Position numbers and translations under genes: made by a program. A DNA stretch of 6,584 nucleotides from a virus (lineage: Duplodnaviria; Heunggongvirae; Uroviricota; Caudoviricetes): the IMG/VR virus record IMGVR_UViG_2778261571_000001, positions 1 to 6,584 of that record. One strand, 5' to 3'. The notes under the pieces were generated by a model. It ran no database searches, had not been told where the DNA came from, and saw nothing but the letters and a program-made list of their open reading frames with translations. Positions 1,060-4,633 of the stretch are shown one piece after another; the first letter of the stretch is position 1; each line of letters opens with the position of its first letter.

Positions 1060-1244
1060 GGCCTTCCCCTTTTGCCCTGTTTGACCATCAGGACGCCGTT
1101 AACTATTACGTGACGCTCGCCTTTGCTGTCTCGGTTGTACTTGAGCACTGTTCCTCTTGCGCAGGAAAGCATCCTCGCCACTTCGGTCTGATTGCCTCGT
1201 GTCTGGATAAGAAGCTCTGGTATCGTTTGAATTGTGGCGTTCAT
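1056..1244 (-). CDS. ninH: NinH-like small DNA-binding protein
   Basis: 62-aa ORF with ATG start. The motif TIPELL...GNQTEVARML.C.RGTV.KY resembles lambda NinH. Its stop overlaps the Q start (ATGA). Confidence 0.7.
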   Translation of the reverse strand: MNATIQTIPELLIQTRGNQTEVARMLSCARGTVLKYNRDSKGERHVIVNGVLMVKQGKRGRP

Positions 1245-1603
1245 GCGTTCTCCAGTTCGGTGATTTTTATTCCAAGCCTTCCGCCTGGTACTTTCACACC
1301 ACGAATTACGCGAATGTCATCGAATTGCTCGTCGTCTTCCGCAAATCCGGCGTGGATAAGTGAGTCGAGTAAACCTTTCAGGATGTTATCGAGGTCGCGG
1401 CGGCGGGAGTCTGGAACGTCTGCGATGACTTTGATGCGGAGTCGTGATTTGGTGAAAATGTCTAACTTGAGTTGGCGGATTATTTGCTGAACGTCTTTTC
1501 GGTATTTCTGGCCTTTATCGCTGATGTAGTATTGGCTTCCCCGTCTTCGCCAGTAGGTGTTCAGCGACGGTGGGTACGGAAGTGTGAATCTGTATTCTGC
1601 CAT
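1241..1603 (-). CDS. rusA: Holliday-junction resolvase RusA
   Basis: 120-aa ORF with ATG start and an upstream GGAGAGGA Shine-Dalgarno. It has the RusA hallmarks: N-terminal L/TLPxPPSxN, the catalytic acidic cluster RRRDLDN, and a C-terminal GGRL motif. Length matches E. coli RusA (120 aa). Confidence 0.85.
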   Translation of the reverse strand: MAEYRFTLPYPPSLNTYWRRRGSQYYISDKGQKYRKDVQQIIRQLKLDIFTKSRLRIKVIADVPDSRRRDLDNILKGLLDSLIHAGFAEDDEQFDDIRVIRGVKVPGGRLGIKITELENA

Positions 1604-2128
1604 TTATCCTCTCCCATGATTATGGTGATACCCCAATCGTGATTCCGCCAATTTTCTGGCATTAACGGCTAGAGATATGTCATCGTATAATCCAAGAAAT
1701 ATCTTTTTATTATCACTGTTTATATATGCGCCCCACTTTTTATTCTTCTTATAGTAGGCAACACCCATTACTCCAGAGCGATTATTAATAGGCTTTTTTC
1801 TGTTCCTTGAGTTCTGTTTATCATCTACAACGCGCAAATTGCATATTCTGTTATCGCTTTTAATTCCATTTATGTGGTCAATTTCCCCATCAGGTTCGCT
1901 TCCATAAAATGATATCCATGCGATTCTATGAGCTCGACAAACTTTTTTATTTACAGATATACGAACGTATCCTTTTTCATCTATAGAACCAGCAATCTTA
2001 CCGGCATATGTTGAATTCCAGCACTCTCTTACACTTTCTCTTCTTTTGTATATAAACAAACCTGTTTCGCTATTATATTCATACAATTCATTGATTTCTT
2101 TTTGTGTTGGATATCTTTTACCGTTCAT
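1604..2128 (-). CDS. HNH homing-type endonuclease with C-terminal AP2 DNA-binding domain
   Basis: 174-aa ORF with ATG start. HNH core EIDHINGIKSDNRICNLRVV and an AP2-like segment SGVMGVAYYKKNKKWGAYI. The gene is visibly more AT-rich than its neighbours. Its start overlaps the upstream stop (ATGA). Confidence 0.8.
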   Translation of the reverse strand: MNGKRYPTQKEINELYEYNSETGLFIYKRRESVRECWNSTYAGKIAGSIDEKGYVRISVNKKVCRAHRIAWISFYGSEPDGEIDHINGIKSDNRICNLRVVDDKQNSRNRKKPINNRSGVMGVAYYKKNKKWGAYINSDNKKIFLGLYDDISLAVNARKLAESRLGYHHNHGRG

Positions 2129-2415
2129 GACTTAATCTTCCCCTCCTTCAGCAGTATCGCCTGCGTCCTGATCACGCCTTCGAGGTGGTAAAGTCTGGCG
2201 TCTTTGTTGTCGAGATTATGGGTGCGTCGGTCGATCTCCGCGTGGCAGTCACTACAAGCCCATGCGCCGATCAGGTCGTCAGGCTTCATCCCCGTTCCAC
2301 AAATTCCAGCCATCCGGTAATGTGCCAGAACTGTAGTTTCAGGATTACCATTGCATACGCCGTAAATACGTACCTGGCATTCTCTGCCGCGTGCTTCTTT
2401 GCGTAGATTAGCCAT
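2125..2415 (-). CDS. ybcO: Cys-rich DUF1364/YbcO-family nin-region protein (putative nuclease)
   Basis: 96-aa ORF with ATG start and a GGGGAGG Shine-Dalgarno. The pattern RGRECQVRIxGVCNGNPETxVLAH...CGTG.KP.DL....ACS.CH.EIDRRTH resembles the DLP12 YbcO protein as I recall it. In DLP12, ybcO sits directly upstream of rusA. Confidence 0.6.
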   Translation of the reverse strand: MANLRKEARGRECQVRIYGVCNGNPETTVLAHYRMAGICGTGMKPDDLIGAWACSDCHAEIDRRTHNLDNKDARLYHLEGVIRTQAILLKEGKIKS

Positions 2416-3140: not shown

Positions 3141-3303
3141 CGTCTTCTTCCTCGTACATTGAGCTATTCGGATCGCTCATCAGCTCTGCGCAGCAATCGG
3201 AGCACACGTGAACTTCCAGAAAATGCAGCTTTTGACCGCAGTTAGCGCACGTTAAAGCCCGCTCGACGCTTTGTTGTTCGTAACTTCGATTTGGGTCAAT
3301 CAC
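3133..3303 (-). CDS. ninF: NinF-like small Cys-rich protein
   Basis: The core [41 protein letters not shown] matches lambda NinF as I recall it. The ORF track gives a 70-aa product starting at 3345, but a GTG at 3303..3301 overlaps the NinE stop (GTGA) and gives a lambda-sized ~56-aa product, so I prefer that start. Confidence 0.7.
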
Positions 3304-3482
3304 CTTGTTTTCCTCGCACGTTCTCTTAGCCACCGGATATCCCACAGGTGAGCCGTGTAGTTGAAGGTTTTTACGTCAGATTCTTTTGGGATTGGCTTGC
3401 GTTTATTTCTGGATCGTTTCGTTGGAAGGTATTTGCAGTTTTCGCAGATGATATCGATGAAACTTCGTCGCTGTCGTCTCAT
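3300..3482 (-). CDS. ninE: NinE
   Basis: 60-aa ORF with ATG start. [23 protein letters not shown]...[15 protein letters not shown] is near-identical to lambda NinE as I recall it. Its start overlaps the NinB stop (ATGA). Confidence 0.85.
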
Positions 3483-3900: not shown

Positions 3901-4086
3901 TTATTTTTTATGCCTGTAACCCCATTCTTCCAGCAACCTTGCGGCGTACCACCCAAGAAACAAAGGAAAGAACATTACAATGAGATATTCCCCGCCACGG
4001 TCAATGTTCGAAATTGACCAGATTACGATGTAACCAGTGCAGAACAGGAATATTACAAACCCCAAAAAGCTACTTCGTCGACTCAT
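3901..4086 (-). CDS. Hypothetical small membrane protein (2 predicted TM helices)
   Basis: ORF of ~61 aa from ATG at 4086 (the track's 63-aa version starts at a GTG at 4092). AAGGAG lies 5 nt upstream of the ATG. Two hydrophobic stretches (FLGFVIFLFCTGYIVIWSI and YLIVMFFPLFLGWYAARLL) and a basic C-terminal tail. No family recognised. Confidence 0.45.
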   Translation of the reverse strand: MSRRSSFLGFVIFLFCTGYIVIWSISNIDRGGEYLIVMFFPLFLGWYAARLLEEWGYRHKK

Positions 4087-4088
4087 GC

Positions 4089-4409
4089 TCACTCCTTCAC
4101 TTTGATTCCAGCAGCGCGGATGTTTTCCTCATAAGCATCCATTGCATCACCGAAGCCATTGGAATAATCAACAGTAAACCCTTTGGCTAATGCTTCTCTG
4201 CTGTCGATAAACTTTGGCGCGGTTATTTCAATAGCTGATCGCGATGCCTGCCACGTTTGCCAGTGGCCTTGAACATCGTCCATCACGTATTGACCACCAA
4301 TATTACCACTGCCAATTTCATGGTGATTTTCAGGGTAACGGATAAGGTCTGAGGATTCGCCTCCACGTCGCAACCAACTTTCTTCAAACTGCTTTCTTGA
4401 TTCGTCCAT
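4089..4409 (-). CDS. Hypothetical acidic soluble protein, ~106 aa
   Basis: ATG start with a GAGGGT Shine-Dalgarno. No recognisable catalytic motif. Tightly packed between two small 2-TM ORFs. Confidence 0.55.
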   Translation of the reverse strand: MDESRKQFEESWLRRGGESSDLIRYPENHHEIGSGNIGGQYVMDDVQGHWQTWQASRSAIEITAPKFIDSREALAKGFTVDYSNGFGDAMDAYEENIRAAGIKVKE

Positions 4410-4426
4410 CGATACTTACCCTCAGT

Positions 4427-4633
4427 TCAACTCACAAAACGCCACGCCATTTTTGCTACAGCGACAGGCATAACACCGATAATCACCCAGACAAATGCAG
4501 CGCCAAACAACGTATACCATGGGTCTTTACCGTCATTCACAAGACGAATGTAGCTATGCAGAACAATAAATAACGTCAGAAGAATCCATCCAACGCCAAC
4601 GCATTTGAATGCGACGAGCATAAACTCAGCCAC
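4427..4633 (-). CDS. Hypothetical small membrane protein (2 predicted TM helices)
   Basis: 68-aa ORF from GTG at 4633 (GGGGGAGAG upstream); an alternative ATG at 4621 would give 64 aa. Two hydrophobic helices (LVAFKCVGVGWILLTLFIVL and LFGAAFVWVIIGVMPVAVA). The start is uncertain. Confidence 0.4.
   Translation of the reverse strand: MAEFMLVAFKCVGVGWILLTLFIVLHSYIRLVNDGKDPWYTLFGAAFVWVIIGVMPVAVAKMAWRFVS

What the first reader, a model, noticed from the sequence alone, without database searches (positions are those of the whole stretch)
1604..2128. AT-rich HNH-AP2 homing-type endonuclease inserted between ybcO-like gene and rusA
This gene is visibly far more AT-rich than the flanking nin genes, which points to recent horizontal acquisition. 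In the E. coli DLP12 prophage, as I recall its gene order, ybcO is directly followed by rusA, so this ORF looks like an insertion at that junction. It is spliced in with an exact ATGA stop/start overlap upstream and its stop abuts the rusA start. HNH-AP2 proteins are typical free-standing homing endonucleases, which spread by cutting alleles that lack them. It sits between a putative nuclease (YbcO-like) and a Holliday-junction resolvase, so a link to recombination or repair of the cut is conceivable.
Basis: partly seen in the sequence, partly recalled or inferred. Interest (0 to 1): 0.55.

Follow-up and report, generated by a model that had tools for sequence, protein, structure and literature searches.

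The report
Homing endonuclease gene upstream of rusA
A small selfish DNA-cutting gene (an HNH nuclease fused to an AP2 DNA-binding domain) sits exactly at the ybcO/rusA gene junction of a lambda-like E. coli prophage; it is a well-defined but ordinary new example of a known kind of mobile gene.

Summary
A 174-codon ORF lies on the minus strand at 1604-2128. Its ATG overlaps the ybcO stop as ATGA, and its TAA abuts the rusA ATG. GC is 34.9% against 48.8% for the rest of the window (GC3 0.29 vs 0.52, p=5e-9).

The protein is an I-HmuI-like HNH nuclease with an intact D84-H85...N93...N106 motif and a C-terminal AP2 fold.

Empty sites are common: HK97, HK022, HK620, DLP12 and about 900 complete E. 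coli genomes. Only 33 of 5426 genomes, and 18 IMG/VR contigs, carry the gene, always at this position.

The gene takes over rusA's original start (ATGAACG) and gives rusA a new ribosome-binding site, a new ATG and a recoded 5' end. That recoded patch (core rusA nt 4-21, linked to nt 40) was found only with the insert.

The insert has four times less synonymous diversity than its flanks. The flanks are as diverse as empty alleles. The gene is under purifying selection and occurs in very different lambdoid backbones.

Best reading: a promoterless free-standing HNH-AP2 homing endonuclease cassette whose target is the rusA 5' end of empty alleles. Cleavage is untested. It is a new member of a known kind, of modest interest.

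The parts
1604..2128 (-). Free-standing homing endonuclease gene (HEG): 174 aa, ATG to TAA, 34.9% GC
   Evidence: ORF list. Pfam HNH_3 E=1e-16. PHROG 99 'HNH endonuclease' E=4e-63. Composition. All 17 full copies compared are intact, and piN/piS is 0.115.
2122..2128 (-). ATGAACG: the start codon and first bases that belong to rusA in insert-free alleles, here used by the HEG. The ATGA at 2125-2128 overlaps the ybcO stop. The left boundary of the insert lies between 2122 and 2121.
   Evidence: Alignment with HK97: identical through CATGAACG, then divergent. HK97 gp66 and rusA overlap by 4 nt, as do DLP12 ybcO and rusA.
1937..2104 (-). N-terminal beta-rich region (aa 9-64), which aligns with the N-terminal DNA-contacting part of I-HmuI
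1805..1936 (-). HNH (His-Me finger) nuclease core, aa 65-108, with D84, H85, N93, N97 and N106
   Evidence: Pfam HNH_3 on aa 65-108. Residue-by-residue alignment with I-HmuI D74/H75/N83/N87/N96. H85, N93 and N97 are invariant, and D84 and N106 are at least 90% conserved, in 61 homologues.
1634..1777 (-). C-terminal AP2-fold DNA-binding domain, aa 118-165: three strands and one helix
1607..1615 (-). Purine run GGGAGAGGA inside the last HEG codons: a Shine-Dalgarno-like element that the cassette supplies for the displaced rusA
   Evidence: Sequence read directly: TCACCATAATCATGGGAGAGGATAA|ATG. Its function is inferred.
1564..1600 (-). Recoded 5' end of rusA (rusA nt 4-40), found only together with the HEG. 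The core is nt 4-21 (window 1583-1600): GCAGAATACAGATTCACA against AACGAATATCAGTTTGTG in empty alleles. This is the predicted position of the HEG target in empty alleles and the basis of self-immunity.
   Evidence: Differences at nt 12-21 are fixed (97-100% of empty alleles differ); nt 4-6 in the empty set were set by the search pattern. dxy is 0.33 over nt 1-42 with zero diversity among HEG+ alleles, against 0.036 in the rest of rusA. All 18 IMG/VR loci with this 5' end carry the HEG, and the same 18 come back in a peptide-level degenerate scan. All 33 E. coli genomes with the patch carry the HEG, and no genome has the patch alone.
1241..1603 (-). rusA (Holliday-junction resolvase gene): the host gene whose 5' end was displaced and rebuilt
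   Evidence: Pfam RusA E=2.4e-16. From nt 45 onward, rusA in HEG+ alleles is indistinguishable from rusA in empty alleles.
2125..2415 (-). ybcO-like (DUF1364) gene: the upstream flank, unchanged by the insertion
   Evidence: Pfam YbcO E=1.4e-43. There are no HEG-specific differences in its last 300 nt. The polymorphism 2 nt before the ATG is shared by HEG+ and empty alleles.

Best explanation
The ORF is a promoterless, free-standing homing endonuclease gene of the HNH-AP2 family that has invaded the nin operon of lambdoid phages at one fixed position, between nt 7 and 8 of rusA.

Shown:
- It uses rusA's former start codon, which is translationally coupled to ybcO through ATGA.
- It carries at its 3' end a purine-rich ribosome-binding site and a new ATG for rusA.
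- It is always linked to a recoded rusA 5' end.

Inferred:
- During lytic growth the gene is transcribed with the nin genes.
- The protein binds the rusA 5' end of insert-free lambdoid genomes (co-infecting phages or other prophages). By analogy with I-HmuI, the HNH domain would sit close to the insertion point and the C-terminal AP2 domain on DNA further into rusA.
- It nicks or cuts there.
- Recombinational repair from the insert-bearing copy then copies in the gene together with the short stretch between the insertion point and the cut.
- The recoded patch makes the carrier immune to its own enzyme.
For: Protein:
- HNH_3 at E=1e-16.
- The C-terminal domain has the AP2 fold.

Presence/absence at one exact site:
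- None of 310 matching phage records carries the insert.
- 33 of 5426 complete E. coli genomes carry it, always next to the DUF1364 (ybcO-like) gene.
- About 925-957 E. coli genomes carry this ybcO/rusA family, most of them with the site empty.
- IMG/VR holds 18 occupied loci against at least 120 empty ones.

Immunity and co-conversion signature:
- rusA nt 4-21 differ at 11 of 18 positions, and this version was never found without the gene.
- Linkage ends by rusA nt 45 downstream and within 2 nt upstream.

Spread into pre-existing diversity:
- Synonymous diversity is 0.027 in the gene against 0.11 in its own flanks (ratio 0.25, bootstrap 0.17-0.33).
- Flanks of occupied and empty alleles are not differentiated: dxy equals pi at 0.041 (ybcO) and 0.036 (rusA).
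- The identical protein sits in prophages with different replication, Q and packaging modules.

Functional constraint: all 17 full copies are intact, with 12 synonymous against 6 non-synonymous variable sites and piN/piS 0.115.

Cassette design: there is no promoter or terminator of its own on the coding strand, as for the promoterless seg and mob genes of T4 (PMC2988022).

Family habit: relatives at 43-48% identity lie between other conserved genes in other phages or prophages.
Against: - No cleavage, nicking or inheritance data exist. Everything is comparative.
- Occupancy is low (about 3.5% of sites in complete E. coli genomes), which is not what a strong drive near fixation would give.
- Lambdoid phages recombine so freely that a passive cargo gene flanked by 95-98% identical genes could also end up in many backbones.
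- The empty-site set from IMG/VR was selected with a pattern that fixes rusA nt 1-11, and the contigs are not phylogenetically independent.
- AP2 does not reach the Pfam threshold by sequence.
- One occupied genome has a second match to the rusA query, which may be an empty site (H193). The second site was not inspected. If it is an empty site, the enzyme is silent in the lysogen or that allele is resistant.
- The recoded patch could instead have been selected for rusA translation in its new context.
Confidence: 0.7

Rival explanations
1. Passive cargo ('moron'). The gene was inserted once by illegitimate recombination and has since moved between lambdoid phages only by ordinary homologous recombination in the conserved flanking nin genes. 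It would be kept because it is neutral or gives some benefit, without endonuclease-driven drive.
For: The lambdoid nin regions are highly mosaic, and the flanks are 95-98% identical across phages, which allows easy exchange. Occupancy is only about 3.5%.
Against: The catalytic site is intact and under purifying selection. The linkage pattern is asymmetric: none upstream, and an invariant recoded 37-nt stretch downstream that is never seen alone. That fits obligatory co-conversion or immunity better than random crossover points. The family is a recognised homing-endonuclease family (PMC10448857).
Confidence: 0.18
2. A domesticated nuclease that serves the phage or the lysogen: for example, cutting superinfecting or competing lambdoid phages (exclusion), or acting with the flanking YbcO-like nuclease and RusA resolvase in recombination or repair.
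For: It lies in the early nin operon between a putative His-Me-finger nuclease and a Holliday-junction resolvase. It is under purifying selection. PADLOC gives only a weak match to its 'homing endonuclease' model (E=1.6e-5).
Against: More than 95% of otherwise equivalent phages lack it and keep ybcO and rusA directly joined, so YbcO and RusA do not need it. There is no match to any known defence system component beyond the generic model. Relatives sit next to unrelated genes. Exclusion would in any case be a by-product of homing-type cleavage.
Confidence: 0.08
3. A packaging-associated HNH like HK97 gp74, which assists terminase at cos, or a pure DNA-binding regulator that has lost nuclease activity.
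For: Lambdoid phages do use HNH proteins with terminase. One occupied prophage has such a PF01844 gene next to its terminase (L150).
Against: This gene belongs to a different HNH subfamily (PF13392 with AP2), lies far from the terminase genes, and is present in phages with at least four different packaging modules. Most close relatives of those phages lack it. The catalytic residues are conserved.
Confidence: 0.03

Closest known systems
I-HmuI (Bacillus phage SPO1 intron-encoded HNH endonuclease, PDB 1U3E)
   Different: I-HmuI is encoded inside a group I intron and ends in a helix-turn-helix domain. This protein is free-standing and ends in an AP2 domain. Sequence similarity is marginal. Whether this enzyme nicks or makes a double-strand break is unknown.
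HNH-AP2 homing endonuclease family (Magnani et al. 2004, as cited in PMC10448857; 'IPA-HNH' genes of Vibrio phage ICP1)
   Same: Same architecture: an N-terminal HNH and a C-terminal AP2. Many homologues found here carry both Pfam domains. The genes lie between conserved phage genes.
   Different: The described members are in lytic phages, cyanobacteria and protists. This one sits in temperate lambdoid prophages of E. coli and forms its own tight cluster: one 90% cluster of 145 sequences, with the next relatives at 55% identity or less. The ICP1 genes are too divergent for the HNH_3 profile, whereas this one matches it well.
T4 free-standing HNH and GIY-YIG genes (mobE, segF, segG and others)
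   Same: It is a promoterless cassette in the same orientation as its neighbours, inside an existing operon. It is intergenic between conserved genes, with the target in the neighbouring gene, and flanking sequence is co-converted (PMC2988022). Here there is no promoter or terminator of its own and a linked downstream patch.
   Different: T4 enzymes often cut hundreds of bases from their gene. Here the linked stretch is only about 40 nt, so the cut is predicted to be very close, more like an intron-encoded enzyme. The host phages are temperate.
HK97 gp74-type HNH next to terminase
   Same: It is an HNH protein of lambdoid phages.
   Different: It belongs to a different Pfam family (PF01844), lies at a different genome position and has a different role (packaging). 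It has no AP2 domain and is not a presence/absence polymorphism. One occupied prophage carries both genes (L150).

Membership tests
HNH / His-Me finger endonucleases (Pfam HNH_3, PF13392) | Profile match above the curated threshold | tested here: met
   60.7 bits against a cut-off of 24.8, E=1e-16, aa 65-108.
HNH / His-Me finger endonucleases (Pfam HNH_3, PF13392) | Catalytic His (general base) with the adjacent Asp, the structural Asn and the metal-binding Asn all present | tested here: met
   D84-H85, N93, N97 and N106 align with I-HmuI D74-H75, N83, N87 and N96. H85, N93 and N97 are invariant, and D84 and N106 are at least 90% conserved, in 61 homologues. The roles of the I-HmuI residues are from my own knowledge of the 1U3E work.
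HNH / His-Me finger endonucleases (Pfam HNH_3, PF13392) | Metal-dependent DNA cleavage | not testable with these tools
   Needs purified protein.
AP2 DNA-binding domain (PF00847) | Profile match above the curated threshold | tested here: not met
   14.7 bits against a cut-off of 33.3, E=0.04, and only the first half of the profile matches.
AP2 DNA-binding domain (PF00847) | Three-stranded antiparallel sheet packed on one helix, superposable on solved AP2 domains | tested here: met
Free-standing homing endonuclease gene | Presence/absence polymorphism at one exact position in otherwise homologous genomes | tested here: met
   The position is the same in 33 E. coli genomes, 18 IMG/VR contigs and 10 further assemblies. 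The site is empty in HK97 and the other phages of the top hits, in DLP12 and in about 900 E. coli genomes.
Free-standing homing endonuclease gene | The carrier allele differs from empty alleles at or near the target, so that it is immune | tested here: inconclusive
   A recoded stretch of rusA (nt 4-40), found only with the gene, is present. That it is the target and confers immunity is an inference.
Free-standing homing endonuclease gene | Horizontal spread with co-conversion of short flanking tracts | tested here: inconclusive
   The gene has four times less synonymous diversity than its flanks. The flanks are not differentiated from empty alleles. Linkage ends within 2 nt upstream and 45 nt downstream. 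This fits homing, but recombination without drive is not excluded.
Free-standing homing endonuclease gene | Site-specific cleavage of the empty allele and above-Mendelian inheritance in crosses | not testable with these tools
   Needs an in vitro cleavage assay and phage crosses.
I-HmuI-like intron-encoded HNH endonucleases | Encoded within a group I intron; C-terminal helix-turn-helix DNA-binding domain | tested here: not met
   The ORF lies between two protein-coding genes, with direct start/stop contact and no room for an intron. The C-terminal domain is AP2, not helix-turn-helix. It works like I-HmuI in its nuclease half but is not a member of that group.

The most novel reading that the evidence does not exclude
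The gene is more than a parasite. As a prophage-borne nuclease expressed on induction or infection, it would cut the rusA 5' end of competing insert-free lambdoid phages. This would lower their yield and force gene conversion of the whole neighbouring nin/Q region, acting as a weapon in competition between prophages. Its position just upstream of a Holliday-junction resolvase would ensure that the repair intermediates it provokes are resolved, giving a self-sufficient 'cut and resolve' unit.
Probability: 0.12. Interest if true: 0.6.

Novelty: new member of a known kind. Interest (0 to 1): 0.35.

Why it matters
Homing endonuclease genes have been studied almost entirely in lytic phages such as T4, T5/T1-like phages, SPO1 and ICP1.

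This case is a clean natural polymorphism in the genetically tractable lambdoid phages. There are hundreds of sequenced empty sites, including the laboratory phages HK97, HK022 and HK620. The insertion point is exact. An 18-37 nt recoded stretch predicts where the enzyme binds and cuts.

That makes several things directly testable:
- the target specificity of an HNH-AP2 enzyme;
- the length of co-conversion tracts;
- the contribution of such genes to the mosaicism of the nin region.

It also warns annotators of two points. The rusA start in carriers is not the ancestral one. Two different genes in this region are both labelled 'HNH endonuclease' in public records.

Conceptually it adds a member to a known class and not a new mechanism.

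Tried and rejected
- Species-representative genomes (GTDB). An exact 20-mer of the recoded rusA 5' end matched nothing. A protein-based scan found only one distant relative, 41% identical, in a Kiritimatiellae MAG. This gave no information on host range beyond E. coli.
- NCBIfam gave no match for the ORF or for the ybcO-like protein.
- The promoter/terminator scan found nothing on the coding strand in or next to the gene. The single promoter-like site is on the opposite strand and is within chance expectation.
- Six E. coli genomes matched the rusA 5' query from nt 7 on and looked like possible carriers of the patch without the gene. The two inspected (L143, L144) are ordinary empty alleles that the aligner had extended through mismatches.
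- Three literature searches found no paper that describes this gene or a homing endonuclease at the ybcO/rusA junction.
- A GCC-box-like CCGCCG at rusA nt 31-36 of empty alleles, changed to CCACCG in carriers, was considered as the AP2 docking site. About 10% of empty alleles also have the A, so this stays a guess.
- The packaging-HNH reading was rejected on family, position and distribution.

Full report
**Where the feature sits**

All genes of the window read on the minus strand and form the early-right (nin) region of a lambdoid phage. In order they are:
- a DnaB-like helicase gene (6160-4709);
- three small ORFs;
- ninB (3889-3479), ninE and ninF;
- a roi/ant-type antirepressor gene (3140-2415);
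- a ybcO-like DUF1364 gene (2415-2125);
- the ORF in question (2128-1604);
- rusA (1603-1241), ninH (1244-1056) and Q (1059-436).

The window is not identical to any complete E. coli genome. The best match covers 89% of it at 95.8% identity, which is what a mosaic prophage would give.

**Checking the observation**

The ORF is real: 174 codons, ATG to TAA. Its ATG overlaps the ybcO stop as ATGA (window 2125-2128). Its stop codon is followed directly by the rusA ATG.

The composition differs sharply from the neighbours:
- GC is 34.9% against 48.8% for the rest of the window.
- The lowest value in any other 525-nt window is 44.2%, giving z = -6.9.
- Third-position GC is 0.286 against 0.516 for the other 13 ORFs (Fisher p = 5e-9).

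The same holds for HK97 gp66 and rusA.

**What the protein is**

- Pfam gives HNH_3 on residues 65-108 (E=1e-16). PHROGs gives 'HNH endonuclease' over the whole length (E=4e-63).
- The only solved relative by sequence is the SPO1 intron endonuclease I-HmuI (E=0.0096). In that alignment D84-H85, N93, N97 and N106 fall on I-HmuI D74-H75, N83, N87 and N96.
- In an alignment of 61 homologues, H85, N93 and N97 are invariant, and D84 and N106 are nearly so.
- Foldseek also ranks AP2 domains first.
- By sequence alone AP2 stays below the Pfam threshold (14.7 against 33.3 bits), although many homologues carry a recorded AP2 hit.

So the HNH-AP2 label is right: clear for HNH, and supported by fold but not by profile for AP2. 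The literature treats this architecture as a family of homing endonucleases (PMC10448857, citing Magnani et al. 2004).

**Empty and occupied sites**

| Collection | Occupied | Empty or total |
|---|---|---|
| 50,697 phage records | none | 310 match the flanks; the best 31 (HK97, HK022, HK620, N7, mEpX1 and others) match both flanks at 96-98% with the 525 nt missing |
| 5426 complete E. coli genomes | 33, at 95-99.6% identity, always next to the DUF1364 gene | about 925-957 genomes carry this ybcO/rusA family |

Occupancy in complete E. coli genomes is therefore about 3.5%. One occupied copy is truncated by IS1 in a decayed prophage.

The exact protein is on record in 1444 blocks of the assembly collection. 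In all ten places shown it lies between ybcO and rusA.

No representative genome of any other species carries the recoded rusA 5' end that marks occupied sites, and a protein scan of the same genomes found no close relative of the gene. In the protein database it forms one tight cluster of 145 sequences, with the next relatives at 55% identity or less. The nearest phage proteins (up to 48% identity) are in lytic T1-like, Felix-like and other phages, where they are often annotated as homing endonucleases.

In empty alleles the sequence is ...GATTAAG(C/T)C ATGAACG AATATCAGTTTGTG CTTCC..., where ATGAACG begins rusA.

In the window the same ATGAACG begins the inserted ORF (ATGAACGGTAAAAGA...). So the ATGA overlap with ybcO is the old ybcO/rusA overlap, not a new splice.

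Formally, 525 nt are inserted between nt 7 and 8 of rusA. The insert ends in ...CATGGGAGAGGATAA ATGGCAG. This supplies rusA with a purine-rich ribosome-binding site, a new ATG and a new second codon.

Directly after the insert, rusA is recoded:
- carriers: ATG GCA GAA TAC AGA TTC ACA (M A E Y R F T);
- empty alleles: ATG AAC GAA TAT CAG TTT GTG (M N E Y Q F V).

There are further linked differences at nt 27, 33 and 40.

This 5' end is never found without the gene:
- All 18 IMG/VR contigs with it carry the gene.
- A degenerate search for any DNA encoding MAEYRFTLPYPP returned the same 18 contigs.
- In complete E. coli genomes it occurs in exactly the 33 occupied ones.
- Six borderline hits were found. 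The two inspected were ordinary empty alleles.

One caveat applies. My empty-allele set was collected with a pattern that fixes rusA nt 1-11, so differences at nt 4-6 are partly by construction. The other searches do not depend on that pattern.

**Population signature**

This analysis used 16 occupied and 108 empty IMG/VR loci with complete flanks.

| Measure | ybcO | Gene | rusA |
|---|---|---|---|
| Nucleotide diversity, occupied alleles | 0.040 | 0.008 | 0.030 |
| Nucleotide diversity, empty alleles | 0.041 | - | 0.036 |
| Divergence between occupied and empty (dxy) | 0.041 | - | 0.036 (nt 43 onward) |

- The flanks of occupied alleles are as diverse as those of empty alleles and are not differentiated from them. 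The exception is the first 42 nt of rusA, where divergence is 0.33 and diversity within carriers is zero.
- At synonymous sites alone the gene has 0.027 against 0.11 for its own flanks (ratio 0.25, bootstrap 0.17-0.33). Its piN/piS of 0.115 is like that of the neighbouring genes.
- All 17 full copies are intact, with 12 synonymous and 6 non-synonymous variable sites.
- Several flank haplotypes of carriers are identical to haplotypes of empty alleles.
- Linkage is asymmetric. A C/T polymorphism two bases before the ATG occurs in both classes, so nothing upstream hitch-hikes with the gene. Downstream, the linked stretch runs to nt 40 and is broken by nt 45.
- The backbones that carry the gene differ in replication genes (O plus DnaB, Toprim primase-helicase, IstB/DnaA-like), in Q family and in packaging module (Sf6-type, Terminase_2, HK97-type with its own PF01844 HNH, P22-type).

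**Most likely mechanism**

Taken together, this is the pattern expected of a free-standing homing endonuclease gene that entered a pre-existing, diverse population of lambdoid nin regions more recently than the age of the flanking alleles. It moves with only a very short obligatory tract.

I infer that the enzyme recognises the 5' end of rusA in empty alleles (about nt 4-40). It would cut or nick there during lytic growth, when the nin operon is transcribed. There is no promoter or terminator of its own, like the promoterless seg and mob cassettes of T4 (PMC2988022). Repair from the occupied copy would then copy in the gene. The recoded stretch would be the part that must always travel with the gene, because it lies between the insertion point and the cut and/or destroys the recognition sequence.

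From my own knowledge, I-HmuI reads mainly the DNA downstream of its insertion point and nicks one strand. That would fit the one-sided patch and leaves open that this enzyme is a nickase.

The presence/absence polymorphism, the exclusive linkage, the diversity contrast and the intact active site are shown. Target, cleavage, immunity and drive are inferred.

**Rivals**

- Passive cargo. A passive cargo gene spread by ordinary recombination is the main alternative. Lambdoid mosaicism and the low occupancy speak for it. The asymmetric, invariant patch and the conserved nuclease site speak against it.
- Role with YbcO and RusA. More than 95% of equivalent phages join these two genes directly, and relatives of the gene sit next to unrelated genes: between lysis and terminase genes in a Mixta prophage, and directly after DnaB-type helicase genes on two phage-like metagenome contigs.
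- Packaging HNH. A packaging HNH of the gp74 kind is excluded by family, position and distribution.
- Defence systems. PADLOC gives only a weak match to a generic 'homing endonuclease' model.

**Comparison and novelty**

The gene works like I-HmuI in its nuclease half, like the T4 mob and seg genes in its genomic habit, and belongs by architecture to the HNH-AP2 homing endonuclease family.

It is not an I-HmuI-type intron gene: there is no intron and no helix-turn-helix domain.

I found no paper that describes it. Public genomes annotate it only as 'HNH endonuclease signature motif containing protein'.

It is a new member of a known kind. Its value is as a clean, testable case in laboratory-friendly temperate phages, with a precise prediction of the target site.

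**Verdict**

| Item | Result |
|---|---|
| Observation | confirmed |
| Confidence in the homing-endonuclease explanation | about 0.7 |
| Interest | 0.35 |

Noticed in passing
L147:3181-3699 (GCA_030143755.1, JASMQD010000001.1): One occupied prophage carries a second HNH_3+AP2 ORF (172 aa, 43% identical to the window's protein) directly upstream of ninB. It is probably another free-standing homing endonuclease gene at a different nin junction. The window has three small ORFs at the corresponding place.
   Followed up: partly
L146:9777-10262 and L153:508-1152: These loci hold ORFs of the T5orf172/MUG113 family, another family linked to homing endonucleases (PMC10448857). One lies after the lysis genes and one between cII and O. 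Lambdoid prophages seem to hold several kinds of such genes.
   Followed up: no
window 2125-2415 (ybcO-like); L001:2101-2391 (HK97 gp66): RefSeq names the HK97 YbcO/DUF1364 protein 'HNH endonuclease', and PHROG 131 does the same. In occupied prophages two adjacent, unrelated genes can therefore both be labelled HNH endonuclease, which can mislead searches by annotation.
   Followed up: partly
L145:341-1531 (E. coli 1008S19, NZ_CP147050.1): This copy of the gene has lost its first 88 nt or so to an IS1 element that abuts cII. The whole replication/nin segment upstream is deleted. It is a decayed prophage in which the rusA patch is still present.
   Followed up: yes
window 3901-4633 (minus strand): Three small ORFs lie between the helicase gene and ninB: 68 aa and 63 aa, both hydrophobic, and 106 aa. 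The 106-aa protein has no Pfam match; the two smaller ones were not searched. This stretch varies between related prophages.
   Followed up: no
NZ_CP054407.1 (E. coli KCJ3K291), hit H193: This occupied genome has a second match to the rusA 5' query, possibly a co-resident prophage with an empty site. If that site is of the sensitive type, the enzyme must be silent in the lysogen.
   Followed up: no
window 3300-3345 (minus strand): The ninF ORF, as listed from its first GTG (3345), overlaps ninE (3482-3300) by 46 nt. In HK97 ninE and ninF overlap by only 4 nt. The true ninF start is probably further downstream.
   Followed up: no
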